A stretch of 64,000 nucleotides of DNA from Candidatus Woesearchaeota archaeon (GCA_964363345.1 CAYIHY010000001.1:7483-71482); one strand, 5' to 3'; counted from the stretch's first letter, positions 3,174-46,927 are shown. The notes: generated from the letters alone by a model not told the origin. Numbers and translations are program-made.

Positions 3174-3188
3174 TTTTATTATTTTTTC

Positions 3189-7024: not shown

Positions 7025-8206
7025 CTATAAACTTTTCTGTTTAGAGTTTTCCCATTCTTTTAAAAGTTCAGAACTTGAGCGTATTTTTCCTCCGCCCACG
7101 TTAAAAATCACCTGACATCCTATTTTTTTACAAGCTTCAATTTCCTTTTCGGAAAATTGACTTAAACTGATCACATCCCCCCCTTTAGCGATAATATTTG
7201 GTTTTATTTTTAATATAACCTCACTAATCTCGGTTTTATCACTTTCTAAGGTTACGACTTCATCTACACAGTTTAATTCTTCAATTATTGCCTTTCTATC
7301 TTCTGCAGGCATAAATACTTTGCCCTTCTTATTCCGGATATAACTATCCCCATCTATAACTACAATTAATTTACCCCCAAGTTTTTTTGCTTCTTTAAAA
7401 TGGGTTAAATGCCCTAAATGGAGAGGGTCAAATCCCCCACTAACCATAATAATTTTATCTTCCTTTTTTTGTCCGATTAAAATCATATTCCAATCTTTTT
7501 CACTTAGTTCTTTATTTATTTCGAAAGAAGGACATTGTTGAATTAATTCTATTCCTTCATCTTCGGCATACTTCCTTAATTCTTGAGGAAAGAAAAATCT
7601 TACTTTATGTTTTTCTTCATAACTATCAATTAAATTTCCATCCTCAAAAACACTGATGTCAAATCTGATATCTACAGAATGATGCGCGTAATCTATAATA
7701 GGAAAACTTTTTCTAACAATTTTTAATCTTTCAACTTCCATAATTTTTTCCCGAGAAGAAGGGGGTTCATGAATCACCCCCAGACCATTCCAGCAGTCAA
7801 TTAGGAGCAATCCATTTTCATTCAAATGTTTTCTGGCAGTCTTAAAGAAATTTTCTATTTGTTTATTTTCAGTTAAATATCCTATCGCCGAAAACATGCA
7901 AATTATACAATCAAATTTTTCATTTATATCAAAATTAGACATGTCCCCCACAAGAAAATTCATGCCTGGATTCTTCTCTTTTGCTATTTGAATCATCTTT
8001 GGAGAAAGATCCAACCCAGTAATGTTATATCCTCTCTTTGCTAATTCTGCATCATGGATTCCGGTTCCACAGCCCAGATCCAAAATTTTTTTAATCGGTA
8101 AAACAGATTTTTTAAAAACCCCATCTAAAAAATCACATTCTTTACTATAATCCTTTCCCCGATTAAATAAATCATAATACTCTGCATAATTTTTATTGAA
8201 ACTCAT
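7025..8206 (-). CDS. Fusion protein: class I SAM-dependent methyltransferase (N-term) + cytidylyltransferase-like nucleotidyltransferase (C-term, RfaE-II/TagD-like)
   Basis: N-term LDLGCGTGIHDAELAKRGYNITGLDLSPKMI (SAM motif I); C-term IIMVSGGFDPLHLGHLTHFKEAKKLGGKLIVVIDGDSY (the (H/T)xGH motif of the cytidylyltransferase family). Confidence 0.65.
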   Translation of the reverse strand: MSFNKNYAEYYDLFNRGKDYSKECDFLDGVFKKSVLPIKKILDLGCGTGIHDAELAKRGYNITGLDLSPKMIQIAKEKNPGMNFLVGDMSNFDINEKFDCIICMFSAIGYLTENKQIENFFKTARKHLNENGLLLIDCWNGLGVIHEPPSSREKIMEVERLKIVRKSFPIIDYAHHSVDIRFDISVFEDGNLIDSYEEKHKVRFFFPQELRKYAEDEGIELIQQCPSFEINKELSEKDWNMILIGQKKEDKIIMVSGGFDPLHLGHLTHFKEAKKLGGKLIVVIDGDSYIRNKKGKVFMPAEDRKAIIEELNCVDEVVTLESDKTEISEVILKIKPNIIAKGGDVISLSQFSEKEIEACKKIGCQVIFNVGGGKIRSSSELLKEWENSKQKSL

Positions 8207-34485: not shown

Positions 34486-34680
34486 ATGAAAAAATTAGCA
34501 AACCAATTAAAAAAAGGGGATAAAATAATTTTAGCCTCTCAAGAGTATTCTATTGAAGAGCTGGAAATATCAGATATAGGGAAACATGGAATGAGAAAAG
34601 TAAGAATTGTTGCAGTATCTCCAAAACAAGAAAAAATTATTCTAATCCGTCCTGAAGATTATCCTTTTGAATCAAAATGA
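34486..34680 (+). CDS. Small hypothetical protein (64 aa, basic, possible SH3/KOW-like beta fold)
   Basis: ORF with an upstream TATA-like box; 4-nt overlap with the downstream GT2 gene suggests co-translation. No confident family. Confidence 0.25.
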   Translation: MKKLANQLKKGDKIILASQEYSIEELEISDIGKHGMRKVRIVAVSPKQEKIILIRPEDYPFESK

Positions 34681-35579
34681 TAGATGTAATAATAACCTCT
34701 TACAATGAACCAAACTCCACACTAAAAGCGGCACAGATATTTTTAAAGCAATATTCGGGGGAAGATTTGAGATTAATCGTCGTTGATCCCTTCGAAGAAG
34801 TAGGCGAATTTCTGAAGAAAAATATAAATGATAAAAGATTTATTTTTTATCTGGATCCGGGAGAAGGAAAATCATACGCGCTGAATTTATTATTCCAGGA
34901 GTTTCCAGGAACAGATAAAGATATCTTTATTTTAACTGACGGAGATGTTTATGTTTCTGAGAATACACTCCACGAAATATTGGGTACTTTTCAAAATCCA
35001 AAGATTGGTTGCATAACCGCAAAGCCAGTTTCAGTAGACTCGAAGGAGACCAAATTTGGCTACTGGTCTCATCTGCTTTTTTCTGGAGCTAATAAGGTCA
35101 GAAAAAAATTATCCCAAAAAGAGAAATTTTTTGAATGTTCGGGTTATCTATTTGCAATTCGTAAGGGAGTCATTATGGATTTTCCTTTAGATGCTTCGGA
35201 AGATTCTGTTATCCCATATTTATTTTGGAAAAAAGGATACAAGATAAAATATCTTTCAAATGTTGAAGTTTATGTAAAAAATCCAGATAATATTAAAGAC
35301 TGGAAGAATCAAAAAATCAGGAACATAAAAGGACATGAAAATTTAAATAAGTTATTCCCCGAAATGCCAAGAACAAAATCTTTCCTTAATGAAATAAAAT
35401 TTGGGCTTTTTCACTCTTTGTTCTATCCAAGAAACTTAAAAGAATTGAATTGGACAGCAGAGTTATTTGGTGCAAGATATTCTATTTACAAAAAAGCTTT
35501 TAATGATATAAAACAGAAAACAAATTATTCTGATGGGTGGAGAGAAACAGAGATAGAATCAACAAAGCCCTTAGACTAA
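34677..35579 (+). CDS. Glycosyltransferase family 2
   Basis: IDVIITSYNEPNS N-terminus; ILTDGD (DxD); 300 aa. Confidence 0.65.
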   Translation: MIDVIITSYNEPNSTLKAAQIFLKQYSGEDLRLIVVDPFEEVGEFLKKNINDKRFIFYLDPGEGKSYALNLLFQEFPGTDKDIFILTDGDVYVSENTLHEILGTFQNPKIGCITAKPVSVDSKETKFGYWSHLLFSGANKVRKKLSQKEKFFECSGYLFAIRKGVIMDFPLDASEDSVIPYLFWKKGYKIKYLSNVEVYVKNPDNIKDWKNQKIRNIKGHENLNKLFPEMPRTKSFLNEIKFGLFHSLFYPRNLKELNWTAELFGARYSIYKKAFNDIKQKTNYSDGWRETEIESTKPLD

Positions 35580-36268
35580 TTTTTATTTCTATACATTACC
35601 AGTCGATTAAGATAAATAAAAGGAATATCAACTATTCCGACAAGCCACTTTATCATTAAAGTTCCTATAATCAAAGGCAAAAGTGGCTGAATCCCATAAA
35701 ACGCGATTGTTATAAAAATAATCGTGTCTACTGCCATTGAAGGAATTGAAGAAAAAATATTCCTCATCCATAAATGTCTCCCATTGGTTCTTTTCTTAAA
35801 CCAAGAGAAGAGATAGGCATCTATATTTTCGCTGATTAAAAATGCAATCCATGAAGCAAGCATTATCCTTGGAGCAAACCCCAGTATTTTAGTAAAGATT
35901 TCTTGATCGGTCCAAAAAGGGGCAGGCTCTAATGAGATTGCTATAAAAATAAAGAGGGCAGTAGAAATCTGAGTAAGAAATGCAATAAAAATCATCTTTT
36001 GTGTTTCTCTTCTGCCAAATTTCTCATTCACAATATCTGTTAAGAGAAAAGTTACAGAAAAAATTAAAGTTGCAGATGTTGCAAAAAAGGTAACAGATCC
36101 AAAGTCGAAGCTAACTATCTTATAAGCGATTATATTGCTGATTAAAATAAAAGCAATGTATAAACCAATAAGCGCATCAGGCTTATTATATCTCCGAACA
36201 TACCACGAACCAAATAATGAAAATGCGGTCGTTAACACAATCCATAGAATAATTAGTAATAACTCCAT
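35576..36268 (-). CDS. YhhQ/DUF165 (VUT-family) queuosine-precursor transporter-like membrane protein
   Basis: FLLTDIVNEKFG and IDAYLFSWFKKRTNGRHLWMRNIFSSIPSMAVDTIIFITIAF align with E. coli YhhQ blocks (FLATDLTVRIFG; LDVHVFNRLRQ..RWWLAPTASTLFGNVSDTLAFFFIAF). Confidence 0.7.
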   Translation of the reverse strand: MELLLIILWIVLTTAFSLFGSWYVRRYNKPDALIGLYIAFILISNIIAYKIVSFDFGSVTFFATSATLIFSVTFLLTDIVNEKFGRRETQKMIFIAFLTQISTALFIFIAISLEPAPFWTDQEIFTKILGFAPRIMLASWIAFLISENIDAYLFSWFKKRTNGRHLWMRNIFSSIPSMAVDTIIFITIAFYGIQPLLPLIIGTLMIKWLVGIVDIPFIYLNRLVMYRNKN

Positions 36269-36269
36269 T

Positions 36270-36710
36270 TTATTTAATCAAATTATTACCCGGAGTTTTA
36301 TCAGTATCTTTAAATTTCTTTAATTTCTTTTTTAGGTCTTCAAATGTTTTAACGATATCTACAGAATGTATTACTATCGCACTTAAATTTTCAAGAGCAT
36401 CTTCAATCGGTTCATCTTCTTTAATCCCGAGTATTGGAATTCCTTTTGCATAAGCATATCCCAATTCCCATGCAGTTCCAGCCCCAACATGCAATCCGTT
36501 CAGATTAGCAATTACTAAAGAAACATTTTCAAATCCTTGAATTATATCTTCTTTGAATATCCTTTCTACATCATCCATGCACTCCACTAAGCCCGCATCT
36601 CGATGAGGTAAATAAGTCTCAAAACCAATATCTTCTGCTAGTTTTGCTAATTTCTCTAAAAATTCCCTTTCACTTTCTGCACACAATTTTCCCGCAATAT
36701 ATACTTTCAT
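36270..36710 (-). CDS. Nucleoside 2-deoxyribosyltransferase-like (PF05014-like) Rossmann protein
   Basis: MKVYIAGKL at the N-terminus and GTAWELGYAYAKGIPILGI; 146 aa. Confidence 0.45.
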   Translation of the reverse strand: MKVYIAGKLCAESEREFLEKLAKLAEDIGFETYLPHRDAGLVECMDDVERIFKEDIIQGFENVSLVIANLNGLHVGAGTAWELGYAYAKGIPILGIKEDEPIEDALENLSAIVIHSVDIVKTFEDLKKKLKKFKDTDKTPGNNLIK

Positions 36711-36837: not shown

Positions 36838-38805
36838 ATGATGTATAATTGGAAAAGAAATTGCAGGTATTTTAAAGGGACAACTCCTTGCGATATGGTT
36901 CTTGAAAATCAAGTTGATAATTGTGAGGGATGTTCTTTTTGTGAACCAATTAAAAAAATATTAATTATTAAATATGGTGCTGCAGGAGACATTCTTCGGA
37001 CAACACCGATACTTTCTGCAATAAAAAAGAAATTCGGAGAGAATACTCAAATTTATTGGATTACTAATGAAAGAGATATAATGTTAATTAAAGATAATCC
37101 CGAGATAGATTACAAACTTGTTTTTAATCATCAAAATATCAGGAGATTAAATTTAATAAATTTTCATGCATTATTTAGTTTAGAGGCGGATAAAGAAATT
37201 TTAGCAGTTGCTAATTCAATAAATGCTGAAAAAAAATATGGATTTTTTTTAGACGAAGGAGATAACCCTGCATGTTTTAACAAAGGGGCAGAAGGTTACT
37301 TAGAAAAAATATGGTCTAATAGATTAAATAAAGGAAATAGAAGAACTTACCAAGAATTTCTGTTTGAAATATGCGAATTAGAATATCATAAAGAAGATTA
37401 TTCTTTTTATCTTGATAATTATGAAAAAAAATTATCAGAACAATTAAAAAAAGAAAACTCTCCGATCATCGGAGTGAGTATTGCAGTAGGAAGTAAATGG
37501 CCTTCAAAGCATATTTCAAATGAAAAAAAAATTGAATTGATAGAAAAACTACACAAACTGAATTTAGGAAAAATAATGATTATAAGTGGAATTCAGGAAA
37601 AAGAACTTAAAGAAAATATTCTAAACAAATTAAAGGAAAAGGGAATAAATGATATAATTTCTTGGGAAGGAAATACAACTGCGGATCATATAGCAGAAGT
37701 TGAATCTTGTGATACAGTTATTTGTGGAGACAGTTTATCTATGCATATCGCTCTTGCATTAAAAAAGAAAGTAATCGGATTATTCTTATGCACCCCCCCA
37801 TGGGAAATAGAAGATTATGGGAGGATGACCAAAATTACAAGCCCATTACTAGATAAGTATTTTTTTACAGATCAGTATGAAGAAGAATTAGTGAATAGTA
37901 TAAGTGTAGAAGAAATAATAAATGAATTAGAACTAAAAAAAATTTTTAGAAATATAAATGAAATTAAGGACTTGATAACTAATCTTGAAAAGAAAGGAAA
38001 AAAAGTAATGATAACAAATGGGTGTTTTGATTTGCTTCATGCAGGGCATATAACCTTTCTCGAATATGCAAAGAAACAATGTGATGTTTTGATTGTTGCT
38101 ATTAACTCAGATAAATCTGTGCGAGCATACAAAGGACAAAATCGTCCAATAAATAACGAAGATTTCAGAGCATATCTGCTTTCAAAAATTAAAGATGTAG
38201 ATTATGTCTATATATTTGATGAAACAAAATTTGAAGGAACGCTTAGAGAATTAAAACCAAAATTATATGCAAAAGGAAGAGATTATACTTTGGAAACAAT
38301 AGAACAAACCGAAAGAGAAATAATTGAAAGTTATGGAGGAAAAATAATTATTGTTAAACATCCTATCGAAATTACGACTTCAGAAATTATAAAAAAAATG
38401 AATGAACCTGAAGTTAGAGTGGTTAATGCAATAATAAAAAATCCTTTGAATGAGACTGTTCTTGTTATAAAAAGAAAAAATGAGAGTATCCATGAAGGAA
38501 AATGGGCTTTTCCCGGAGGAATTGTTAAAGAGGGAGAATCAAATGAAATCGCATTAAAAAGAGAAATTCAAGAAGAAGTTGGATTAAAAATAAATAAAAT
38601 TATTAAAAAAATTTCAGAATATACCTACACGCGACCTGACGGAAAATTCACTTTAGGGATTTCTTATTTAGTTGAAGCGGAAGGATATGTCATTATAGAT
38701 AAAAATGAAGTTTCAGATAGCAAATGGGTTACAGTTGAAGAATTTGAAAATTTAGACCACATTGAAGGATTAGAAAAAGAAATATTCGATGCATTTTATT
38801 TGTAA
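36838..38805 (+). CDS. Tri-domain fusion: GT9 heptosyltransferase-like + RfaE-domain-II-like cytidylyltransferase (heptose-1-P adenylyltransferase-like) + Nudix hydrolase
   Basis: GT9: KILIIKYGAAGDILRTTPILSAI ... VICGDSLSMHIALALKKKVIGLF. Adenylyltransferase: KVMITNGCFDLLHAGHITFLEYAKKQCDVLIVAINSDKSVRAYKGQNRP. Nudix: GKWAFPGGIVKEGESNEIALKREIQEEVGL. Confidence 0.7.
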   Translation: MMYNWKRNCRYFKGTTPCDMVLENQVDNCEGCSFCEPIKKILIIKYGAAGDILRTTPILSAIKKKFGENTQIYWITNERDIMLIKDNPEIDYKLVFNHQNIRRLNLINFHALFSLEADKEILAVANSINAEKKYGFFLDEGDNPACFNKGAEGYLEKIWSNRLNKGNRRTYQEFLFEICELEYHKEDYSFYLDNYEKKLSEQLKKENSPIIGVSIAVGSKWPSKHISNEKKIELIEKLHKLNLGKIMIISGIQEKELKENILNKLKEKGINDIISWEGNTTADHIAEVESCDTVICGDSLSMHIALALKKKVIGLFLCTPPWEIEDYGRMTKITSPLLDKYFFTDQYEEELVNSISVEEIINELELKKIFRNINEIKDLITNLEKKGKKVMITNGCFDLLHAGHITFLEYAKKQCDVLIVAINSDKSVRAYKGQNRPINNEDFRAYLLSKIKDVDYVYIFDETKFEGTLRELKPKLYAKGRDYTLETIEQTEREIIESYGGKIIIVKHPIEITTSEIIKKMNEPEVRVVNAIIKNPLNETVLVIKRKNESIHEGKWAFPGGIVKEGESNEIALKREIQEEVGLKINKIIKKISEYTYTRPDGKFTLGISYLVEAEGYVIIDKNEVSDSKWVTVEEFENLDHIEGLEKEIFDAFYL

Positions 38806-38861
38806 TACAAATTTAACCTTCATAATCTTTTTATATTCATTTTTAAATAATTTAAGTACAG

Positions 38862-39731
38862 ATGATAAAAATAGTTTTTTGTGATATAGATGGATGTATG
38901 GGAGATTTTGTAAAGCCAGAGTATCCTCTAAAACAGGATTTGTATGAAAATAGAGAACAATTAGAAGAAATACAAAAAAAAGCTTATCAGATTTCTCTTG
39001 TAGAACCAGAAATTTTATTTGGGGTTTGTACAGGTAGGTCATTTTATCAAGCAGACCATATCATGAAGAAAACAGGATGTCAAGGACCATCTATTTTTGA
39101 AATGGGAAATGTTATTTTTGATCCAAAAGAAGGAGTTTATAACTTGTTTGAAAAATATGACCGATTTAAAGCAAATATCGAATTGCTAAATGCCTTTATT
39201 CAATGGAAAAATAAAATGAAAGGAAGTGAAGAACAACTAAAAAGGAAGTTTCCAAACTCAGGATTAAGACAGATGAAAGATAGAACATGTATGCTGACTT
39301 ACGAATTTGAAGAAAAAATAGGGGAAGAGTTATACCAACATATTTTAGAGATTATACCATCTCAATTTAAAGAAGCGATAGATATGTCTCTTTTAAGAGT
39401 TTCTTTGTCTAAAAATGCAATAGACATACTTCCCAATATTACAAAAGGGGATGCAGTTACTTATTTGATTAATCTCTATGGGATATCTAAAGAAGAAGTT
39501 TTAGCGATAGGAGATTCAAGTCATAGCGATTTGGATTTACTTAAATCTGCCGGGCTGGTTGCTTGTCCTGATAACGCAGATTTAGAGTTAAAGAAGTATG
39601 TTTTTGAACATAATGGATTTGTTGTTCCAAACAGTTCAAATAAAGGGCTGATAAATATTCTTGACTTAGTCGAGAATCTTATTAAATTTACCAACTTAAA
39701 AAATGAATCTAAACTTGTTAGACAGATTTAA
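38862..39731 (+). CDS. HAD-superfamily phosphatase, subfamily IIB-like (Cof/MPGP-like)
   Basis: IVFCDIDGCMGDF (motif I DxD) and C-terminal AIGDSSHSDLDLLKSAG (motif IV); 289 aa. Confidence 0.5.
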   Translation: MIKIVFCDIDGCMGDFVKPEYPLKQDLYENREQLEEIQKKAYQISLVEPEILFGVCTGRSFYQADHIMKKTGCQGPSIFEMGNVIFDPKEGVYNLFEKYDRFKANIELLNAFIQWKNKMKGSEEQLKRKFPNSGLRQMKDRTCMLTYEFEEKIGEELYQHILEIIPSQFKEAIDMSLLRVSLSKNAIDILPNITKGDAVTYLINLYGISKEEVLAIGDSSHSDLDLLKSAGLVACPDNADLELKKYVFEHNGFVVPNSSNKGLINILDLVENLIKFTNLKNESKLVRQI

Positions 39732-40698
39732 AGAAAGAAAAATTTTAGTAGTGGGAGATTATTGTATTGACAAATTTTATTTTGGAGAACCAAGAGGAAT
39801 TTCTCCTGAAGCACCAATCTTAAGAAATGTGGGGAGCAGGAATGATATAAAAATAAATCCAGGAATGGCGGGAAATATCGCTGCTGGAGTTAATGCTCTT
39901 GGAGCAAAATGTTATGTGGTGGGGGTTATTGGAGGTGATGGAGACAGTGCGAGTAGAGAAATGATAAATATTTTTAACAAAATGGGAGTAAATACAGGAG
40001 GAATGATTTTACAAAAAGATAGGACTACTCCAGAATTTATTCGCATAGTTTCAGGAGGTATAAAATACCCTTCTCAACAGATAATCAGACACGACGTAGA
40101 AAATACTGCTCCAATAACTAAGTCAACAATAAAAAAACTAGAATCTTTTATTTATAATCAAATAAATGAAATTGGGGGATTTGATGCAATAATTGTGGGG
40201 GACTATAACGAATTTGGAGAAGGGATAATTACAAATTATTTGCTCAATAAACTAATAGAAATTTCTAGCGATAAAAGAATATTTTCTATCGGAGATTCAA
40301 GAAAAAATTTTAAATCTTTTCATGATTTTACTTGCATAAAACCAAATCTTAACGAAGCAAGACAATTAGAAAAAACAAAAGGTATGTCTTTAGATAATCT
40401 TGCCCTTAAAATTACCAAGGATTTAAAATTAAAGGCAGTTTTGATTACTAAAGATAAAGAAGGAATGTATCTCCTAACAAATTCTGGAATAAAAAAAGAT
40501 TTTCCTGCTTATGCTAAGGAAGTAGTAGATGTTACGGGAGCAGGAGATAGTGTAACAAGTGCATTTACACTTGCATTAACTTCAGGATTTGGTTATGAAC
40601 AATCTGCACAATTAGCAAGTTATGCCGCAGCGATCTCTGTATCCAAGCCAGGAGTTAGCGTTGTTTCATTGGAAGAATTAAAAAAATTTACACTTTAA
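39703..40698 (+). CDS. PfkB-family sugar kinase, RfaE domain I-like (D-glycero-beta-D-manno-heptose 7-phosphate kinase candidate)
   Basis: ILVVGDYCIDKFYFGE (compare RfaE ILVVGDVMLDRYW.G) and VDVTGAGDSVTSAF (the PfkB DxTGAGD signature). Confidence 0.75.
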   Translation: MNLNLLDRFKERKILVVGDYCIDKFYFGEPRGISPEAPILRNVGSRNDIKINPGMAGNIAAGVNALGAKCYVVGVIGGDGDSASREMINIFNKMGVNTGGMILQKDRTTPEFIRIVSGGIKYPSQQIIRHDVENTAPITKSTIKKLESFIYNQINEIGGFDAIIVGDYNEFGEGIITNYLLNKLIEISSDKRIFSIGDSRKNFKSFHDFTCIKPNLNEARQLEKTKGMSLDNLALKITKDLKLKAVLITKDKEGMYLLTNSGIKKDFPAYAKEVVDVTGAGDSVTSAFTLALTSGFGYEQSAQLASYAAAISVSKPGVSVVSLEELKKFTL

Positions 40699-40706
40699 AA
40701 AAGAAA

Positions 40707-41201
40707 ATGAGAGATAAAATAAGAACATTAGATGAATTAAAAGAAATAACTTCTAAGTATAAACAAGAATCCAAAAAAATAGGAACAACAAATGGTTATT
40801 TTGATTTGCTTCATATAGGCCACATTTATATGCTTGAGAGTGCTAAATCTTTAACCGACATATTAATTGTTTTAATAAATAGCGATGATTCTACAAAGAA
40901 ATTAAAGGGTTCAAAAAGACCAATAGTCCCAGAAAAAGAAAGAGCAGAGATGCTTTCTTCATTAGAATGTGTAGATTATGTTACAATATTTGATGGAGAT
41001 AACCCTTTAGATTACATACGAGAATTAAAACCTGATATCCACATAAAAGGAGGAATTTTTGAACAGGACAGGATAAAAACAGAAAGAGATTTAATCGAAT
41101 CCTGGGGTGGAAGACATATAACTCTCCCCTTAGTTGAAGGATATTCTACAACCAATCTTATAGATAAAATAATTAAGGCTTATGAAAACAATTCATCATA
41201 A
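40707..41201 (+). CDS. Cytidylyltransferase-family protein, RfaE domain II-like (heptose 1-phosphate adenylyltransferase candidate)
   Basis: IGTTNGYFDLLHIGHIYMLESAKSLTDILIVLINSDDSTKKLKGSKRP; 164 aa. Confidence 0.8.
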   Translation: MRDKIRTLDELKEITSKYKQESKKIGTTNGYFDLLHIGHIYMLESAKSLTDILIVLINSDDSTKKLKGSKRPIVPEKERAEMLSSLECVDYVTIFDGDNPLDYIRELKPDIHIKGGIFEQDRIKTERDLIESWGGRHITLPLVEGYSTTNLIDKIIKAYENNSS

Positions 41202-41214
41202 AAACAAATAAAAA
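41195..41214 (+). repeat. 20-bp motif ATCATAAAAACAAATAAAAA, copy 1, immediately upstream of the ATG at 41215
   Basis: Identical 20-mer recurs at 42310..42329. Confidence 0.4.
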
Positions 41215-42255
41215 ATGGAAAATAAAAAAAATTTATTTGATAAAACAGAATTAAAAACTATTCCCCTTAGTTTAAGAGAAAGCAAATCTTCAATAGAAAA
41301 TATAGTTGTTAATCCAAATTCAAAATTATATCCTGCCTCAGATGACAGGATAGAACATATTGCTGAACAAATAATTTCTGCAAGAAAAAAAAATAAACCT
41401 GTAATATTAACTTATGGAGCACATTTAATAAAAAATGGACTAGGGTTAGTTTTAAGGAAAATGATTGAAGAAAATATAGTTACTCATCTGGCAACAAATG
41501 GTGCAGGCTCTATCCACGACTGGGAATTTGCCTTTCAGGGTAAGACTGAAGAAGATGTTAAAAAAGCAATTTCCGTAGGGCAATTTGGTTTAGGGGAAGA
41601 AACTGGAAAATATATCAACTTAGCTCTTATTTCTGGAGCAGAAAGAGGAATTGGATATGGAGAATCAATTTGTGAAATGATTCATAATGAAAAATTAATT
41701 CTCTCCGGTATAAAAAATGATAAATTAGAAAGGCTATCAATAAAAAGAGAAGATGTTTCTTTGTTGCATCCTTACAAACATTATTCTGTCCAAGAGGCTT
41801 CATTCGGAAAAATTCCCTTAACAATTCATCCCTGTTTCGGTCAGGACATAATTTACACACACCAATTAAGTGATGGTGCATCAATTGGAAAATGCGCAGA
41901 AATAGATTTTTTAAAATTTGTTGATAGTGTAAGTAAACTAGAAAACGGGGGGGTTTATCTTTCTGTGGGTTCTGCAATAATGTCTCCGATGATTTTTGAA
42001 AAATCTTTATCTATGGCGAGAAATATTGCGATTCAAAAAGGAAAAACCATTGAAGATTTTATGATTGTTGTGAATGATATTCAGGAAGGGAAATGGGACT
42101 GGAGTAAAGGGGAACCTCCAAAAGATAACCCTGCTTATTATCTACGTTTTTGCAAAACTTTTAATCGTATGGGTGCAAGAGAACTGCATTATATTCAAGT
42201 GGATAATAGAAATTTCATTTTATCCCTTTACCAATCTATAAAAAATAAAAAATGA
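41215..42255 (+). CDS. Hypothetical Rossmann-like protein (weak resemblance to deoxyhypusine-synthase-like fold); a candidate for the missing isomerase step
   Basis: 346 aa; YGAHLIKNGLGLVLRKMIEENIVTHLATNGAGSIHDWEF. The family assignment is uncertain. Confidence 0.3.
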   Translation: MENKKNLFDKTELKTIPLSLRESKSSIENIVVNPNSKLYPASDDRIEHIAEQIISARKKNKPVILTYGAHLIKNGLGLVLRKMIEENIVTHLATNGAGSIHDWEFAFQGKTEEDVKKAISVGQFGLGEETGKYINLALISGAERGIGYGESICEMIHNEKLILSGIKNDKLERLSIKREDVSLLHPYKHYSVQEASFGKIPLTIHPCFGQDIIYTHQLSDGASIGKCAEIDFLKFVDSVSKLENGGVYLSVGSAIMSPMIFEKSLSMARNIAIQKGKTIEDFMIVVNDIQEGKWDWSKGEPPKDNPAYYLRFCKTFNRMGARELHYIQVDNRNFILSLYQSIKNKK

Positions 42256-42309
42256 ATCCCCCGATGCAAATTTCTTAGCATATGACCTGCTTCATGCAAG
42301 TTATTTTAT

Positions 42310-42329
42310 ATCATAAAAACAAATAAAAA
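42310..42329 (+). repeat. 20-bp motif ATCATAAAAACAAATAAAAA, copy 2, 21 bp upstream of the ATG at 42351
   Basis: Exact repeat of 41195..41214. Confidence 0.4.
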
Positions 42330-42350
42330 CCCTCGATTAATCAATTATTT

Positions 42351-44084
42351 ATGGAAGAAATAAGCGGGGAAATTAAGCCTTCTGCTAATGAAAAAGAGAT
42401 TGAAAAAGGAAAATCAAAAATAAAAAATTTCTTTTTGGGTTGGGTAAAAGATAATTATGATAAAATTTTCATTGGGATTCTAATTCTTGCTTTTATAATT
42501 CGTCTTTGGATTTTTTTCAAAACAATGAATCAGCCATTCTGGTGGGATGAAGCAGATTATCTTTCTGCCGCTAAAAATTGGGGATTAGGATTGGACATTC
42601 GCGATGTTTGGTATTACCGAAGAGGCTTTTTATTCCCTTTAATTGGAGCATTGATATTCCGATTGGGGCTGGGAGAGATTGGAATGAGATTTTTAGTTGT
42701 TCTTTTCTCAACAGGGATAGTTGCAGTTTCATATTTTATAATTTCAAAGATGTTCAATAAAAAACTCGCTTTGATTACAAGCCTAGTTCTAAGTTTATCT
42801 TGGATATTATTATTTTTTACAGGAAGAGTTCTGACTGATATTCCTGCCGCATTTTTTGCCTTATTGTCTCTTTTGTTTTTCTGGAAAGGCTATGTATTAA
42901 AAGAAGGAAATAAATTTCTTTACCTATTCGGTTTATTTCTGGCACTCGCAGTATTAACAAGAATGCAGTCTTTTATGTTCATTCCCCCATTTTTAATTTT
43001 TATTTTAATTCGAGAAAAATCAAAAATATTCAAAAATAAACATCTGTGGATTACGTTAGGAATATTTTTATTATTACTTGTTCCCCAATTTGTTTTATAT
43101 TCTATGCATTATGGTAATGCTTTTAACGATTTAGCTGCCCATTATCTAGGAATCGGCGCCTCATCTAATTCAACTTATGCTGGAGACCAAAGAGCATTTT
43201 CCTTAGCAACTTTTAATTATTTTGCAAATCTCCCTTACATGCTTTCCACAATCATTTTTGGCCTATTAATAATCGGGGCGATATATTTCTTTACAGATTT
43301 ATTCATCGGCATTGATAAAATTTTCAAAAATGAAATCCTCCAAAAAAAATTATTTGTCTTAATGTGGGTTCTTTCCTTATTTTTAATTATGGGTTATATC
43401 GGTTCAGTTTCTTATGTAGAACAGAGGTATATCACTGCAGGATTGCCATTTTTATTCATGATTGCAGTTTTCCCAATTATTTTTGTTAGTGACTTTTTAA
43501 TGAAACAGAATAAACTAAAAAAAATAATTCCCGGAATTCTTTTTATTGTTTTGATTGCTTTGATGATTCCGAATTTGATATTATCAAATTCTCTTTTGAA
43601 TCAGCAGGCAGACTCATATTCGCAGGTTAAAAAAGTTGGGGAGCTTATGAAATCAGATTCTAATACTCGGGATATAATTATGTCGACCTCTCTTCCCCAA
43701 ATAACTTATTATTCTGAACGTTCAACGTATCCCTATGATATCCAACATGATGGTGTCGCTAAAGGGGATAAGTCCCTATTAAACTATAGCGATGGACAGA
43801 AAGGATTTGAAGAATTCTTGAAGAATAAACAACCTAAGTATTTGATGGCTTCTGTTTTTGAAACTGATCCAGACTGGATTTTAAAAAAAGGTACTTATAA
43901 CGAGGATAACTATATTATCTTACCCTTTTTTAATTCATCAATGTCTTATAACTCCCAAGGACAGATAACTTCGTTAGACTTAAATCAAGAAGTAAAAAAA
44001 GATGGTATGACTCTAACCTTATTCTATCCTAAGACTTCCGGGCAGATTAATGGAATATTTATTTACAAAGTGGAATATTCTTAA
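42351..44084 (+). CDS. GT-C-fold membrane glycosyltransferase of the GT39/GT83 type (PMT/ArnT-like dolichyl- or undecaprenyl-phosphate-sugar-dependent transferase) with a C-terminal soluble domain
   Basis: N-terminal FWWDEADYLSAAKNWGLGLDIR (the extracytoplasmic D-E loop motif of PMT/ArnT); GRVLTDIPAAFFALLSLLFFWKGY; >10 TM helices; 577 aa. Confidence 0.55.
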   Translation: MEEISGEIKPSANEKEIEKGKSKIKNFFLGWVKDNYDKIFIGILILAFIIRLWIFFKTMNQPFWWDEADYLSAAKNWGLGLDIRDVWYYRRGFLFPLIGALIFRLGLGEIGMRFLVVLFSTGIVAVSYFIISKMFNKKLALITSLVLSLSWILLFFTGRVLTDIPAAFFALLSLLFFWKGYVLKEGNKFLYLFGLFLALAVLTRMQSFMFIPPFLIFILIREKSKIFKNKHLWITLGIFLLLLVPQFVLYSMHYGNAFNDLAAHYLGIGASSNSTYAGDQRAFSLATFNYFANLPYMLSTIIFGLLIIGAIYFFTDLFIGIDKIFKNEILQKKLFVLMWVLSLFLIMGYIGSVSYVEQRYITAGLPFLFMIAVFPIIFVSDFLMKQNKLKKIIPGILFIVLIALMIPNLILSNSLLNQQADSYSQVKKVGELMKSDSNTRDIIMSTSLPQITYYSERSTYPYDIQHDGVAKGDKSLLNYSDGQKGFEEFLKNKQPKYLMASVFETDPDWILKKGTYNEDNYIILPFFNSSMSYNSQGQITSLDLNQEVKKDGMTLTLFYPKTSGQINGIFIYKVEYS

Positions 44085-44610
44085 TCTTTTTTGGTCCAAG
44101 TAAAAATATTTTTGTGACTGTAAAAAAATTAACTTTCTTTTTTACCTCAAAATTTTCTTTTAAGATTTTTAGAATGTCTTCATAAGAAGTTATGTGCTCT
44201 TTAGGAACTTCTGTTTTCCCGACGAGTTTTCTCACTTTTCTTGAAATAAAATTTCCGGTAGGAATTGAAACAACTAACTGGAAGTTATCATTCATTTCCT
44301 TAAAATTGTTTATAGTCCTCCTTATCTCTGAAGGGAGAATATGTTCAAATACATCAAGACAGAAAATTTTAGTGGGTTTTAATGTTCTGTAATCTTTAAT
44401 AAAAGTTTTATCTGGATTTATATCATATCCGATTATGTTAAATCCCTTAAGTTTTTTTTCAAGCCATCCTGCTCCGCAGCCAAAATCAAGAATTATATCT
44501 TCTTTTTTTAAATTAGCGATTTTTATGGAAGCATCAATCTTTCTTTTAAAATAAGTTCGTGTCAAAAAATTCTTGTTTTCATATGTATTTTCTAAAAGAT
44601 TATTTTCCAT
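44059..44610 (-). CDS. Class I SAM-dependent methyltransferase
   Basis: ILDFGCGAGWLEKKL (motif I); 183 aa. Confidence 0.6.
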   Translation of the reverse strand: MENNLLENTYENKNFLTRTYFKRKIDASIKIANLKKEDIILDFGCGAGWLEKKLKGFNIIGYDINPDKTFIKDYRTLKPTKIFCLDVFEHILPSEIRRTINNFKEMNDNFQLVVSIPTGNFISRKVRKLVGKTEVPKEHITSYEDILKILKENFEVKKKVNFFTVTKIFLLGPKKIKNIPLCK

Positions 44611-45481
44611 TTTCGTTTTTCTTATTTTTTATTTCTAAAAATATTTTATGCAACTCTTCAACTTTAAGATTCTTTTTAATTCCTTCTCTGTTTAATAAAT
44701 AAATCGCTTTCATTTCTTTGTCTTTCCCGTCATATCCATGCATGGCTTTGACAGGATTTTTCCCCTGCCAATAATTGGGGAGTATTAAGACCCCAGAATT
44801 TGCGAGAAAAATATGCTCCCCATACTTTTTATCTTTCCATTCAATCCATTTTCCGTCTCTGGAATCAAATTGTGGTTTTTGTCCCCAATACCTTGCCATA
44901 TCCGAATCAATAAAACAATTATCTGTTTTTGGGACAGAAATATTTTTTTTAATGTCTATCATCCCATGGTCAGAAAGGATTATATCAAACTTCATCCTTA
45001 AAATCTTTTCATCAACTTTTTTTATTGCGGATATTATTTCTTTGCTTTTCGTCCCATATTTGTGCCCGACAATATCTAAGTCCTGAATATAAAAATATTC
45101 AACTCCTTTAATTTTGTAAAATGGCTCATTAACTGAAAAATCAAATTTCCACAATTCTTTCAGAGGGATATTCTCGGTTCTGAATAATTCATATCTTCTG
45201 ACAAATCGAGGGAAATTAATCATGGAATCAACAATAAATCTTCCAACCTTTCCAAATTTTTCCAGAAATAAAAAATGTTTAATAAATTTTAAAGAAGAAT
45301 TTTCCTTCTTGTAAATCAAAGCAAGTTTGTCTGAACTTCCTTTAAAAAAAATTTCCATTCCCCCTTCATGCCCCGTTGGCATTTCCAGTTCCCCCCATTG
45401 GAATTTTTTTGTCAACGAAGAAAGATAAGGTGCATACTCAAGATATTCTGGCTTGAATGCATCTATCATGACTACCTTCAT
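44600..45481 (-). CDS. Alkaline-phosphatase-superfamily metalloenzyme (nucleotide pyrophosphatase/phosphodiesterase- or phosphomutase-like)
   Basis: N-terminal MKVVMIDAFKPEYLEY (compare the V.IDALRPDYL of AP-superfamily enzymes) and ILSDHGM (DHG metal motif). Confidence 0.4.
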   Translation of the reverse strand: MKVVMIDAFKPEYLEYAPYLSSLTKKFQWGELEMPTGHEGGMEIFFKGSSDKLALIYKKENSSLKFIKHFLFLEKFGKVGRFIVDSMINFPRFVRRYELFRTENIPLKELWKFDFSVNEPFYKIKGVEYFYIQDLDIVGHKYGTKSKEIISAIKKVDEKILRMKFDIILSDHGMIDIKKNISVPKTDNCFIDSDMARYWGQKPQFDSRDGKWIEWKDKKYGEHIFLANSGVLILPNYWQGKNPVKAMHGYDGKDKEMKAIYLLNREGIKKNLKVEELHKIFLEIKNKKNENGK

Positions 45482-45484
45482 TTT

Positions 45485-46927
45485 TTACTTAAATTTTTCA
45501 AGATTATATTTATTTACCGTAAATCTGAATGCATTGTCTATCTCTAAGTCATATTTTCTTTTGTAATAAGCAAAAAATAACCCCAGATCAAACAAGAACC
45601 TAAACGGATTCATTTTTAATCCCTCAAATAGAACTTTTTTTATCTGATAAATTCTGACTTTATTTACCACTTTCTTTATATCTTTCATCTTTACATATTT
45701 TGTTCTGGAAACAGGGGAAGTGAACATAAGATGAGAATCTTTGAAACCTTTCCCCTCAATTAAATTTTCTTTTTCACAGATTTCTTTTATTTCTGTTGCG
45801 GGGAGAGGCATTAATATTGGGAAAAGTGTATAGTTTGCATTTATCTTCATAGCCATTTTGTAACTTTCATTCATTGTTTTCGTAGTTTCATAAGGGGCTC
45901 CGACGATAAATTGCACTCTTAAATGCAAGCCGTATTTTTTTATTATTTTAACCGCATTGTAAATTTGTTCTTCGCTCATTTCTCTTTTGTACAGCTTATT
46001 TCTGATTTCATCATTTCCCGCTTCAACCCCCATACGGACTTCATAACATCCTGCATCTTTCATAGCCTTTATTATTTCATCTGTAACTAAATTTGCTCTT
46101 ACATTAACATTCCATCTTAATTTTTTGTCAAATCCCTTTTCTTTAAATCTTTTGCAGAAATCAAGGGCAAATTTTTTGTCAAGAATAAAAGTATCATCAT
46201 AAAAAAATAAATATCTCATTCCAATAGGATAATATTGTTTTATTCTTAATTCTATTTCTTTTATAATGCTTTCAACACTTCTGATTCGAACATATTTTCC
46301 CTCAAGTTTTTTCCTTATTGCATGATTGCTGCAATAAGTGCAGTTGTAGGGGCATCCTCTCGAGCCCATAATTGGAAGATGATCATTGTTTATTAAAAAA
46401 TATTTTTTTAAATCGTAATCTTCAAAATCAGGAAAAGGAAGCTCATCTAGTTCTTCAATCAATCTTAAATTTGGATTTTTGATAATTTCTCCATTTCCTT
46501 TTTTATACCAAATCCCCCTTACTTTTTTGCAATCTAATTTTTTATCAAGCAAATCTTTCAATACATATTCTCCTTCGCAGGTGCAGACAATATCAACCTC
46601 TTTATTTTTTATTGTTTCTTCGGGCATTAATATTGCATGTACTCCGCCGAAAATTATTTTTATATTATAATGTTTTTTTATAAATTGCGCCATTTTTAAT
46701 GCCTGACTGTAATCAAAACTCATCACAGAAAATCCAATCAAATCTGGTTTAAATTTTTCTATCTTCCTCTTGAGATACATTTCCCAATCTTTTTTATGGA
46801 AAATAAAATCAGCTATCTCTGCTTTATGTTCGGTTTTATTATTTACAAAAGATTTCAAAGTAGCTAAAGCCATGCTGGGCATTAAAGCATACCCTTCTAT
46901 GTTTGGTTCTACTAATAATACTTTCAT
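45485..46927 (-). CDS. Cobalamin-binding radical SAM protein (class B)
   Basis: MKVLLVEPNIEGYALMPSMALATLKSF B12-type N-terminal domain; GSRGCPYNCTYCSN CxxxCxxC; 480 aa. Confidence 0.7.
   Translation of the reverse strand: MKVLLVEPNIEGYALMPSMALATLKSFVNNKTEHKAEIADFIFHKKDWEMYLKRKIEKFKPDLIGFSVMSFDYSQALKMAQFIKKHYNIKIIFGGVHAILMPEETIKNKEVDIVCTCEGEYVLKDLLDKKLDCKKVRGIWYKKGNGEIIKNPNLRLIEELDELPFPDFEDYDLKKYFLINNDHLPIMGSRGCPYNCTYCSNHAIRKKLEGKYVRIRSVESIIKEIELRIKQYYPIGMRYLFFYDDTFILDKKFALDFCKRFKEKGFDKKLRWNVNVRANLVTDEIIKAMKDAGCYEVRMGVEAGNDEIRNKLYKREMSEEQIYNAVKIIKKYGLHLRVQFIVGAPYETTKTMNESYKMAMKINANYTLFPILMPLPATEIKEICEKENLIEGKGFKDSHLMFTSPVSRTKYVKMKDIKKVVNKVRIYQIKKVLFEGLKMNPFRFLFDLGLFFAYYKRKYDLEIDNAFRFTVNKYNLEKFK

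What the first reader, a model, noticed from the sequence alone, without database searches (positions are those of the whole stretch)
36838..42255. Bacterial-type ADP-heptose pathway in an archaeal genome, with the isomerase step unassigned
The locus has an HldE-domain-I-like kinase (39703..40698), three separate RfaE-II-like adenylyltransferase domains (7025..8206 C-term, 36838..38805 middle, 40707..41201), a HAD phosphatase (38862..39731) and a GT9 transferase. No SIS-domain GmhA is visible. The adjacent Rossmann-like ORF 41215..42255 has no clear family and is the positional candidate for the sedoheptulose-7-P isomerase or an alternative entry step. Heptoses are classic LPS and capsule sugars but are rarely documented in archaeal glycans.
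Basis: partly seen in the sequence, partly recalled or inferred. Interest (0 to 1): 0.65.

Follow-up and report, generated by a model that had tools for sequence, protein, structure and literature searches.

The report
Archaeal heptose-sugar operon with unknown enzyme
A DPANN archaeon carries a six-gene operon for making and transferring an activated seven-carbon sugar (ADP-heptose type), and the unassigned gene in it is probably not the missing isomerase but belongs to a widespread, uncharacterised enzyme family that travels with heptose genes in bacteria and archaea.

Summary
The gene content is real. Window 36838-44084 (+) is one tightly packed operon: a GT9-nucleotidyltransferase-NUDIX fusion, a HAD-IIB phosphatase, an HldE-domain-I-like kinase, an RfaE-II-like nucleotidyltransferase, ORF 41215-42255, and a PMT_2/GT-C transferase. 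It sits in an archaeal N-glycosylation region of a groundwater DPANN contig.

No GmhA/SIS gene lies in the window or in about 18 kb of flanking contig. The third "RfaE-II" domain (7025-8206) is only a generic cytidylyltransferase.

ORF 41215-42255 does have a family: NCBIfam NF052581, "GSU2086 family", of unknown function. Its fold is deoxyhypusine-synthase/LOR-SDH-like, not SIS.

The family occurs in at least 591 species. An HldE-like kinase is adjacent in 44 of 81 loci, and a GmhA-like SIS gene lies within 6 kb in 28. Natural fusions join it to the SIS isomerase, the kinase, three kinds of phosphatase and the nucleotidyltransferase.

It therefore accompanies GmhA rather than replacing it. 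My best reading is a fifth, probably nucleotide-cofactor-dependent enzyme that modifies a phospho-heptose. This is inferred, not shown.

Archaeal NDP-heptose enzymes were already demonstrated by Tang et al. (2024). The open point is what this family does.

The parts
34677..35579 (+). GT2 glycosyltransferase upstream of the operon. It holds the same position in DPANN relatives and is possibly a polyprenyl-phosphate sugar synthase feeding the GT-C enzyme.
   Evidence: PF00535 45 bits. Same position in L091 and L093. The role is inferred.
36838..38805 (+). Three-domain fusion: GT9 heptosyltransferase-like (aa ~40-333), RfaE-II-like nucleotidyltransferase (aa 381-522, HAGH motif; the STT motif is replaced by HPIEITTS), and NUDIX hydrolase (aa 527-641, intact Nudix box). 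The public gene call starts 57 nt later (636 aa).
   Evidence: GT9+NUDIX fusions occur in L005 and L091.
38862..39731 (+). HAD-IIB (Cof-type) phosphatase with a DIDG motif I. Presumed heptose-1,7-bisphosphate 7-phosphatase, standing in for GmhB.
   Evidence: PF08282 63.6 bits and TIGR00099 67.6 bits. It overlaps the kinase gene by 29 nt. Relatives carry GmhB-type HAD-IIIA at this step. Substrate is inferred.
39703..40698 (+). PfkB kinase, HldE domain-I-like (TGAGD and NxxE motifs). Presumed heptose-7-phosphate 1-kinase.
   Evidence: TIGR02198 239.2 bits, E 5.7e-71, against ribokinase 67.5 bits.
40707..41201 (+). Stand-alone RfaE-domain-II-like nucleotidyltransferase (HIGH motif, LVEGYSTT motif without the STTR5 arginine). 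Presumed heptose-1-phosphate adenylyltransferase.
   Evidence: TIGR02199 170.6 bits, cutoff 181.5. Motif definition from PMC11573728.
41215..42255 (+). GSU2086-family protein (NF052581) with a deoxyhypusine-synthase/LOR-SDH-like fold. Uncharacterised conserved companion of heptose-pathway genes.
42351..44084 (+). PMT_2 / GT-C family membrane glycosyltransferase (ArnT/PMT-like). It follows the GSU2086-family gene in 7 of 8 DPANN clusters examined.
   Evidence: PF13231 56.8 bits. Synteny in L005, L006, L085, L091, L092, L093.
44059..46927 (-). Convergent trio conserved next to the operon in relatives: SAM methyltransferase (44059-44610), alkaline-phosphatase-superfamily 'Phosphodiest' protein (44600-45481), and B12-binding radical SAM enzyme (45485-46927). 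Probably glycan-tailoring enzymes.
   Evidence: Same trio in L085, L091 and L093.

Best explanation
Window 36838-44084 is an operon for making and using an ADP-heptose-type activated sugar, for a cell-surface glycan of a DPANN archaeon.

Proposed flow (inferred from family matches):
1. A heptose-7-phosphate is phosphorylated at O1 by the HldE-I-like kinase (39703-40698).
2. It is dephosphorylated at O7 by the HAD-IIB phosphatase (38862-39731).
3. It is adenylylated by the RfaE-II-like transferase (40707-41201, and/or the middle domain of 36838-38805).
4. It is transferred by the GT9 domain.
5. The GT2 and PMT_2/GT-C enzymes move sugar onto surface acceptors through a lipid carrier.

The isomerase that makes heptose-7-P from sedoheptulose-7-P is not encoded on the roughly 82 kb of contig seen. 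It is probably elsewhere in the genome, as GmhA or as the PMI-like cupin found fused to HldE in a relative.

ORF 41215-42255 is not that isomerase. It belongs to the GSU2086 family, a conserved fifth component of heptose-phosphate metabolism. Its DHS/LOR-SDH-like fold retains the two N-terminal dinucleotide-binding segments.

My most likely mechanism (inferred, about 1 in 3): it binds NAD(P)+ as a catalytic, regenerated cofactor, as deoxyhypusine synthase and ornithine cyclodeaminase do. It then epimerises or otherwise re-configures a phospho-heptose at or near the kinase step, fixing heptose stereochemistry without the SDR epimerase HldD.
For: Shown.
- Domain assignments and tight, overlapping gene spacing.
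- Synteny: the same operon in DPANN relatives carries bona fide-looking HldE, GmhA, GmhB, GT9 and PMT_2.
- Family membership at 301.9 bits, above the 250 cutoff.
- AF2 model with pLDDT 92.
- Best PDB folds are deoxyhypusine synthase, LOR/SDH 3c2q and the AgrE/ArgZ C-terminal NAD+ domain (prob 1.0, TM 0.45-0.5).
- The profile matches AgrE/3c2q over the GAH...NGAGxxHDWE segment.
- The alignment to human DHS puts GAHLIKNG on GYTSNLISSG and ATNGAG on VTTAGG. From my own knowledge of DHS, these are NAD-contacting loops.
- The family is large: at least 7668 hits, 446 50%-identity clusters at E<=1e-30, and at least 591 species across DPANN and many bacterial phyla.
- An HldE-like kinase is adjacent in 44 of 81 loci, and a GmhA-like SIS lies within 6 kb in 28 of 81.
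- Fusions exist with NT, HAD-IIIA, HAD, PfkB+HAD, SIS, PfkB, and DUF89 phosphatase+NT.
- In Geobacter the order is hldE-GSU2086-gmhA, and all three share one Tn-seq phenotype.
- Desulfovibrionaceae have [NT+kinase]-GSU2086-SIS.
- Polar residues invariant down to 34% identity: H70, H101, D102, E104, E113, E150, H205, D211, D231, K263, N270, D288, E300, R311, K314.
- No bona fide HldD sits in any archaeal cluster. The only nearby SDR scores 116 bits against a 274.6 cutoff on TIGR02197.
Against: - No biochemical data exist for any family member.
- NAD binding is inferred from fold and two loops only. The ADP-shaped pocket could instead bind ADP-heptose itself.
- Many bacterial loci lack any nucleotidyltransferase and look catabolic (ROK, LacI, AGE-like epimerase, ABC/SSF transporters, GH38/GH92). 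The common substrate may therefore not be a nucleotide sugar, and may not even be a heptose in those lineages. Their kinases score only about 120-140 bits on TIGR02198.
- The Geobacter Tn-seq phenotype could be a polar effect.
- Kinase and NT scores are below the NCBIfam equivalog cutoffs.
- No isomerase and no S7P source were seen on this contig, so a hexose-phosphate substrate is not excluded.
- D,D-heptose can be used without any epimerase.
Confidence: 0.55

Rival explanations
1. ORF 41215-42255 is a non-homologous sedoheptulose-7-phosphate isomerase, or an alternative entry enzyme, that replaces GmhA in this archaeon.
For: - No SIS/GmhA on about 82 kb of contig.
- No isomerase is adjacent in several DPANN clusters (L005, L006, L085, L092, L093).
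- The gene is always next to the kinase.
- Conserved His/Asp/Glu residues would suit sugar isomerase chemistry.
Against: - The family co-occurs with GmhA-like SIS in 28 of 81 loci, in Geobacter, in Desulfovibrionaceae and in DPANN L004.
- It is fused to SIS in P0185.
- In L091 a PMI-like cupin fused to HldE is a better isomerase candidate, and GSU2086 is still present there.
- The fold is DHS-like, with dinucleotide-binding loops, not SIS or cupin.
Confidence: 0.07
2. The GSU2086-family protein uses its NAD-shaped pocket for ADP-heptose or a heptose bisphosphate and has a non-redox role. Candidates are an anomerase/mutarotase between GmhA and the kinase, a hydrolase, a transferase, or a pathway regulator or sensor.
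For: - ADP-heptose resembles the ADP-ribose part of NAD.
- The most constant partners are SIS and kinase, which fits a step between them.
- An invariant His/Asp/Glu set is typical of acid-base catalysis.
- Basic invariants R311 and K314 could hold phosphates.
Against: - All structurally related characterised enzymes are NAD+-dependent.
- A regulator would not normally keep about 15 invariant polar residues across 34%-identity subfamilies or be fused into a kinase-phosphatase polypeptide.
- No positive evidence exists for any of these activities.
Confidence: 0.2
3. The operon activates a sugar other than a heptose, for example mannose-6-P converted through a beta-1,6-bisphosphate to ADP-mannose. 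This would explain why no S7P isomerase is needed.
For: - No isomerase on the contig.
- Kinase and NT scores are below equivalog cutoffs.
- A PMI-like cupin is fused to HldE in a relative.
- Many DPANN archaea lack a pentose phosphate pathway (my own knowledge, not tested here).
Against: - The best models by a wide margin are the heptose-specific ones.
- GT9 is the heptosyltransferase family.
- Close relatives carry GmhA and GmhB near their cutoffs.
- Archaeal HldE-type enzymes tested so far made ADP-heptose (PMC11461863).
Confidence: 0.1
4. The kinase and nucleotidyltransferases are housekeeping enzymes (ribokinase, or archaeal FAD synthetase RibL / CoA-type adenylyltransferase) with no link to glycans.
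For: - The PfkB and cytidylyltransferase-like superfamilies contain such enzymes.
- The 7025-8206 domain is indeed generic.
Against: - Ribokinase scores 67.5 bits against 239 for rfaE_dom_I. FAD_syn scores 18 bits and CoaD about 25 bits, against 170.6 for rfaE_dom_II.
- The genes form an operon with GT9, GT-C and a phosphatase, inside a glycosylation island.
- Synteny with GmhA and GmhB is conserved.
Confidence: 0.03

Closest known systems
Bacterial ADP-L-glycero-beta-D-manno-heptose pathway (GmhA, HldE or HldA/HldC, GmhB, HldD) with GT9 heptosyltransferases WaaC/WaaF
   Same: - HldE-I-like kinase.
- RfaE-II-like adenylyltransferase with HxGH and (F/L)xxGxSTT motifs.
- A phosphatase step.
- A GT9 transferase.
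- Relatives of this operon also carry GmhA and GmhB.
   Different: - Kinase and NT are split.
- A second NT is fused between GT9 and NUDIX.
- The phosphatase is HAD-IIB, not HAD-IIIA.
- No GmhA and no HldD on the contig.
- An extra GSU2086-family gene and a GT-C transferase are present.
- The host is an archaeon without LPS.
Cross-kingdom NDP-heptose biosynthetic enzymes (Tang et al., Science 2024; summarised in PMC11461863 and PMC11573728)
   Same: - Archaeal HldE-type enzymes that make ADP-heptose.
- Mono-domain and di-domain nucleotidyltransferase types.
- The same STT motif.
   Different: - The summaries read here (PMC11461863, PMC11573728) describe a four-step relay only and name no GSU2086-type gene; the Science paper itself was not read.
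- PMC11573728 says that conserved neighbouring genes still need analysis.
- The NT here lacks the STTR5 arginine.
GSU2086 of Geobacter sulfurreducens (NCBIfam NF052581)
   Same: - Family member above the cutoff.
- Located beside hldE and gmhA.
- Function unknown.
   Different: - The Geobacter context is LPS core synthesis. Here it is an archaeal surface-glycan operon with GT9-NT-NUDIX and GT-C.
Deoxyhypusine synthase and LOR/SDH-type ornithine cyclodeaminase domains (AgrE/ArgZ C-terminus, PDB 3c2q)
   Same: - Overall fold.
- The positions of the two N-terminal dinucleotide-binding loops.
- An HD-x-E motif shared with AgrE and 3c2q.
   Different: - TM-score is only 0.45-0.5 and identity 11-18%.
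- The Pfam and NCBIfam models for these families score below their cutoffs.
- The genomic context is sugar-phosphate metabolism, not polyamine or amino-acid metabolism.
- The public names 'ornithine cyclodeaminase family domain' and 'deoxyhypusine synthase family protein' are transfer annotations.
HldD (ADP-glyceromanno-heptose 6-epimerase, SDR family)
   Same: - The proposed role: cofactor-dependent, redox-neutral change of heptose configuration.
- It would be the fifth enzyme of the pathway.
   Different: - Unrelated fold.
- The substrate is probably a phospho-heptose rather than ADP-heptose, because many loci lack any NT.
- The activity is entirely untested.

Membership tests
ADP-heptose pathway (GmhA/HldE/GmhB type) | SIS-fold sedoheptulose-7-phosphate isomerase GmhA | tested here: not met
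   - No hit in the window: tblastn and GmhA HMM, best E 0.24.
- None in the flanking contig.
- The rest of the genome could not be examined.
ADP-heptose pathway (GmhA/HldE/GmhB type) | HldE domain I / HldA heptose-7-phosphate kinase | tested here: inconclusive
   TIGR02198 scores 239.2 bits over the full length. This is the best model by more than 170 bits, but it is below the 345-bit equivalog cutoff.
ADP-heptose pathway (GmhA/HldE/GmhB type) | HldE domain II / HldC heptose-1-phosphate adenylyltransferase with the (F/L)xxGxSTT motif | tested here: inconclusive
   - 40707-41201: TIGR02199 at 170.6 bits, cutoff 181.5. The HIGH and LVEGYSTT motifs are present.
- The NT domain of 36838-38805 scores 158.9 bits and lacks the STT motif.
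ADP-heptose pathway (GmhA/HldE/GmhB type) | GmhB (HAD-IIIA) heptose-1,7-bisphosphate 7-phosphatase | tested here: not met
   - GmhB HMM best E 0.11.
- The operon's phosphatase is HAD-IIB Cof-type.
- Relatives L005, L091 and L092 do carry GmhB-type genes.
ADP-heptose pathway (GmhA/HldE/GmhB type) | GT9 heptosyltransferase that uses the product | tested here: met
   PF01075 scores 41.4 bits (cutoff 22) in 36838-38805. The acceptor and donor are not testable here.
GSU2086 family (NCBIfam NF052581) | Full-length match above the curated cutoff | tested here: met
   301.9 bits against a cutoff of 250. Residues 8-340 match profile positions 2-300 of 301.
GmhA / SIS isomerases (as proposed for ORF 41215-42255) | SIS fold and SIS sequence signature | tested here: not met
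   No SIS hit in Pfam or NCBIfam. The predicted fold is DHS/LOR-SDH-like.
Deoxyhypusine synthase (PF01916 / TIGR00321) | Family model above cutoff | tested here: not met
   - PF01916 scores 19.6 bits against 27. TIGR00321 scores 19.6 bits against 304.
- The similarity is fold-level only, TM 0.45-0.5.
Deoxyhypusine synthase (PF01916 / TIGR00321) | NAD binding and a catalytic lysine forming the enzyme-imine intermediate | not testable with these tools
   - Two N-terminal NAD-loop positions align.
- No coordinates or ligand docking were available.
- K263 and K314 are invariant, but their equivalence to the DHS lysine is unknown.
LOR/SDH-type ornithine cyclodeaminase domain (PF21570 / TIGR00300) | Family model above cutoff | tested here: not met
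   - PF21570 scores 19.0 bits against 27. TIGR00300 scores 15.8 bits against 410.8.
- The profile match to AgrE and 3c2q covers only about 70 residues, E 0.01.

The most novel reading that the evidence does not exclude
The GSU2086 family is an unrecognised fifth enzyme of heptose-phosphate metabolism. It would be a DHS-fold, nucleotide-cofactor-dependent epimerase or isomerase acting on a phospho-heptose, before or independently of nucleotide activation.

It would be used both in biosynthetic clusters (DPANN archaea, Geobacter, Desulfovibrionaceae) and in a separate kinase-phosphatase-SIS module of many bacterial phyla.

If so, the textbook GmhA-HldE-GmhB(-HldD) scheme is incomplete, and new heptose stereoisomers, or an HldD-independent route to L,D-heptose, would be implied.
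Probability: 0.35. Interest if true: 0.75.

Novelty: new variant of a known kind. Interest (0 to 1): 0.55.

Why it matters
ADP-heptose is an LPS building block, an antibiotic-adjuvant target pathway and the ligand of the ALPK1 innate immune receptor. Its pathway is considered fully enumerated.

A conserved gene of unknown function that is adjacent to, or fused with, every enzyme of that pathway in hundreds of species suggests a missing step or a branch. One possibility is control of heptose stereochemistry.

For archaea, the operon links heptose activation to a GT9/GT-C glycosylation module next to AglB. This gives a concrete, testable route for heptose-containing archaeal surface glycans. PMC11573728 explicitly says that the purpose of archaeal heptose synthesis, and the genes neighbouring the pathway enzymes, remain to be analysed.

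Tried and rejected
- **GmhA or GmhB in the window.** Nothing was found.
- **Contig ends.** I extended the view past both window ends. The first look-up failed because the gene call differed. The others showed only SecDF/UGDH genes and a ribosomal-protein operon.
- **Window HAD-IIB versus the bacterial kinase-fused HAD.** They are not detectably homologous.
- **Cupin as isomerase.**
  - The PMI-like cupin fused to HldE in L091 is a real, DPANN-wide ~125-aa family.
  - Its nearest window relative, 3189-3566(-), is only 30% identical.
  - That ORF has Q in place of the metal-binding Glu.
  - It sits in a GDP-mannose dehydratase / C-methyltransferase / aminotransferase cluster, so I did not assign it.
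- **Literature.** 'deoxyhypusine synthase' + 'heptose' returned no papers. GSU2086 appears only in one Tn-seq table. The AgrE structural paper was not in the library.
- **Phages.** No homologue.
- **HldD anti-correlation.** This could only be examined locally.

Full report
**What is in the sequence**

The window has about 31% G+C. Genes 36838-38805, 38862-39731, 39703-40698, 40707-41201, 41215-42255 and 42351-44084 all lie on the + strand. The gaps between them run from -29 to +95 nt, so they form one operon.

Pfam and NCBIfam assign them as follows:
- a GT9 / RfaE-II-like nucleotidyltransferase (NT) / NUDIX triple fusion
- a Cof-type HAD-IIB phosphatase
- a PfkB kinase whose best model is rfaE_dom_I (239 bits, E 6e-71; ribokinase scores 67.5)
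- a stand-alone RfaE-II-like NT (170.6 bits, cutoff 181.5)
- a protein matching NF052581 'GSU2086 family' (301.9 bits, cutoff 250)
- a PMT_2/GT-C membrane glycosyltransferase

Sequence motifs are intact (read):
- TGAGD and NxxE in the kinase
- HIGH and HAGH in the two NTs
- DIDG in the HAD
- a full Nudix box in the fusion

The stand-alone NT has LVEGYSTT, which fits the (F/L)xxGxSTT motif but lacks the STTR5 arginine. The fused NT has HPIEITTS instead.

The surroundings are a glycosylation island. It contains AglB/STT3, GT4, several GT2 genes, five B12-radical-SAM genes, GDP-mannose dehydratase and DegT.

**Origin**

The identical protein and operon occur on Hainich groundwater metagenome contigs, in a MAG labelled Nanoarchaeota. 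The contig also carries RpoN and the archaeal ribosomal proteins S4e, L32e and L19e. The archaeal assignment holds.

**Corrections to the observation**

The C-terminal domain of 7025-8206 scores only 73.7 bits on TIGR02199, against 55.5 on the glycerol-3-phosphate cytidylyltransferase model. It is fused to a SAM methyltransferase. It is a generic family member, not a third RfaE-II.

The absence of GmhA is confirmed for the window. It also holds for 7.6 kb upstream and 10 kb downstream. The rest of the genome is unknown.

**What ORF 41215-42255 is**

It belongs to a very large, highly conserved family:
- at least 7668 hits
- 446 clusters at 50% identity with E<=1e-30
- at least 591 species in the genome collection

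Those species span DPANN archaea and many bacterial groups, including:
- Planctomycetota, Spirochaetota, Bacteroidota and Verrucomicrobiota
- Lentisphaerae, Kiritimatiellia and KSB1
- Omnitrophota, Acidobacteriota and Desulfovibrionaceae

An AlphaFold model built on 32 homologues is confident (pLDDT 92, pTM 0.91). Its best solved-structure neighbours are deoxyhypusine synthase, the LOR/SDH protein 3c2q, and the NAD+-binding ornithine-cyclodeaminase domain of AgrE/ArgZ. Similarity is modest: TM 0.45-0.5 and 11-18% identity.

A family profile matches AgrE and 3c2q over GAHxIKNG...NGAGxIHDWE. The pairwise alignment to human DHS puts GAHLIKNG on GYTSNLISSG and ATNGAG on VTTAGG. From my own knowledge of DHS, these are NAD-contacting loops.

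The DHS, LOR/SDH and SIS family models are all below cutoff or absent. The protein is therefore a distinct family with a DHS-like dinucleotide-binding fold, not a SIS isomerase.

**Genomic company of the family**

I examined 81 loci. An HldE-I-like kinase is adjacent in 44. A GmhA-like SIS gene lies within 6 kb in 28.

Three context types recur.

(A) *Archaeal and Geobacter-type biosynthetic clusters.*
- G. sulfurreducens has hldE (GSU2085), GSU2086 and gmhA (GSU2087) in a row. All three share the same electrode-growth Tn-seq defect.
- DPANN relatives show these arrangements:
  - GmhA-HldE-GSU2086 (L004)
  - GT9+NUDIX - HldE - GSU2086 - GmhB - PMT_2 (L005, L091)
  - HldE-GSU2086-GmhB-GT2-PMT_2 near AglB (L092)
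  - NT-kinase-GSU2086-PMT_2 (L085, L093)

(B) *Desulfovibrionaceae.* The order is NeuB-like - [NT+kinase] - GSU2086 - SIS - radical SAM/SPASM - split transketolase - methyltransferases.

(C) *Many bacterial phyla.* The order is (ROK)-SIS-[kinase+HAD fusion, or HAD and kinase separately]-GSU2086. Neighbours include LacI, AGE-type epimerase, ABC/SSF transporters and GH38/GH92. No NT is nearby. This layout looks catabolic or salvage-like.

Natural fusions join the family to each canonical pathway enzyme:
- NT+GSU2086 (several)
- HAD-IIIA+GSU2086 (P0063)
- HAD+GSU2086 (P0180)
- PfkB+HAD+GSU2086 (1021 aa; L081/P0133)
- GSU2086+SIS (P0185)
- GSU2086+PfkB (P0192)
- DUF89-phosphatase+NT+GSU2086 (P0136, P0227)

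A protein that sits next to GmhA, and is even fused to it, is not a general GmhA substitute.

In L091 the HldE homologue carries a C-terminal cupin with weak type-II phosphomannose-isomerase and lyxose-isomerase similarity. Homologues of this cupin are common ~125-aa stand-alone DPANN proteins. That is a more natural alternative isomerase, because heptose-7-P is the C7 homologue of mannose-6-P. GSU2086 is still present beside it.

The window has no close copy of this cupin. ORF 3189-3566 is 30% identical but belongs to a deoxy-sugar cluster. The isomerase step therefore remains unassigned for this genome, most probably because the gene lies elsewhere.

**Most likely mechanism**

*Shown:* the family is a conserved companion of the SIS / kinase / phosphatase (/NT) set. 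It has a DHS-like fold with conserved dinucleotide-loop positions. About 15 polar residues are invariant down to 34% identity: H70, H101, D102, E104, E113, E150, H205, D211, D231, K263, N270, D288, E300, R311 and K314.

*Inferred:* it is catalytic and acts on a phosphorylated heptose. It operates near the kinase step rather than on the nucleotide sugar, because type C loci lack an NT.

Its structural relatives use NAD+ as a regenerated cofactor. No bona fide HldD occurs in any archaeal cluster; the nearest SDR scores 116 bits against a 274.6 cutoff. My leading guess is therefore a redox-neutral epimerase/isomerase that sets heptose configuration.

Unusual heptose isomers are known in at least one archaeal N-glycan, from Thermoplasma (PMC11407970).

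Alternatives are that the pocket binds ADP-heptose or a bisphosphate and the enzyme is an anomerase, hydrolase or regulator, or that the operon's real substrate is a hexose phosphate. None of these can be settled computationally.

**Comparison with what is known, and novelty**

The operon is a variant of the known NDP-heptose pathway. Its presence and activity in archaea were reported in 2024, so 'bacterial-type ADP-heptose pathway in an archaeon' is not new in itself.

Four features differ from the canonical pathway:
- the GT9-NT-NUDIX fusion
- HAD-IIB in place of GmhB
- coupling to a GT-C transferase beside AglB
- the constant presence of the GSU2086-family gene

That family is already catalogued, but no function or study of it turned up in the libraries and paper collection searched here, and it is mis-named by transfer as 'deoxyhypusine synthase family' or 'ornithine cyclodeaminase family domain'.

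**Verdict**

The finding has moderate interest because it points to a widespread, untested extra component of heptose metabolism.

Noticed in passing
window 36838-38805; also L005 7144-8538, L091 3800-5182: GT9 is fused to a NUDIX hydrolase with an intact Nudix box. In the window an NT domain sits between them. Putting a nucleotide-sugar synthase, its consumer and a potential ADP-sugar/ADP pyrophosphatase in one chain is odd. It may serve product (ADP) removal or donor proofreading.
   Followed up: partly
L091 5238-7001: An HldE homologue (kinase+NT) carries a C-terminal cupin with weak type-II phosphomannose-isomerase / lyxose-isomerase similarity. Stand-alone ~125-aa homologues are common in DPANN archaea. 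It is a candidate non-SIS sedoheptulose-7-P isomerase.
   Followed up: partly
L060 6499-11125, L056, L016, L075 8076-11095, L040 7431-11092, L088 8155-11585: Bacterial operons of the form ROK - SIS - HAD - HldE-like kinase (often a 632-aa kinase+HAD fusion) - GSU2086. Neighbours include LacI, an AGE-type epimerase, ABC/SSF transporters and GH38/GH92, and there is no nucleotidyltransferase. This looks like an unknown sugar-phosphate salvage or catabolic module.
   Followed up: partly
L087, L094, L095 (Desulfovibrionaceae): A conserved cluster: NeuB-like - [NT+kinase, reversed domain order] - GSU2086 - SIS - radical SAM/SPASM - two unknown genes - split transketolase - methyltransferases - radical SAM. 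It lies next to pseudaminic-acid-type genes and GT9. It possibly makes a chain-extended or branched higher sugar.
   Followed up: no
window 9366-11162, 32187-33725, 45485-46927, 46924-48318, 50486-51943: Five B12-binding radical SAM genes lie within one glycosylation island. The one next to the operon is conserved in relatives. This suggests extensive C-methylation or similar tailoring of glycans or lipids.
   Followed up: no
window 33722-34435 (-), 35576-36268 (-), 36270-36710 (-): QueC, a Vut_1/YhhQ-type transporter and a nucleoside 2-deoxyribosyltransferase-like gene are interleaved with the glycan genes directly upstream of the operon. QueC and the deoxyribosyltransferase-like gene keep these places in L091 and L093, and QueC also in L005; the transporter was seen only on this organism's own contigs (L001-L003). 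This may be 7-deazapurine salvage.
   Followed up: no
window ~34486-34680 (+): A 64-aa ORF between QueC and the GT2 gene is called in the public records, with a weak IF5A-like N-domain hit. It is conserved in position in L091 and L093.
   Followed up: no
window 7025-8206 (-): A SAM methyltransferase is fused to a generic cytidylyltransferase-like domain (HLGH motif), next to a degenerate NUDIX-like ORF (6124-7002) and a GT1 gene. It is possibly a separate activation and methylation step for another sugar or polyol phosphate.
   Followed up: partly
P0128 (693 aa), P0144 (679 aa): Tandem duplications of the GSU2086 domain within one polypeptide. This hints that the functional unit is a dimer or higher oligomer, as in deoxyhypusine synthase.
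   Followed up: no
window 2766-3566 (-): Two small cupins (one WbuC-like, one FdtA-like with HYH...Q) sit beside a C-methyltransferase, a GDP-mannose 4,6-dehydratase and a DegT aminotransferase. This is a separate deoxy-amino-sugar pathway in the same island.
   Followed up: partly
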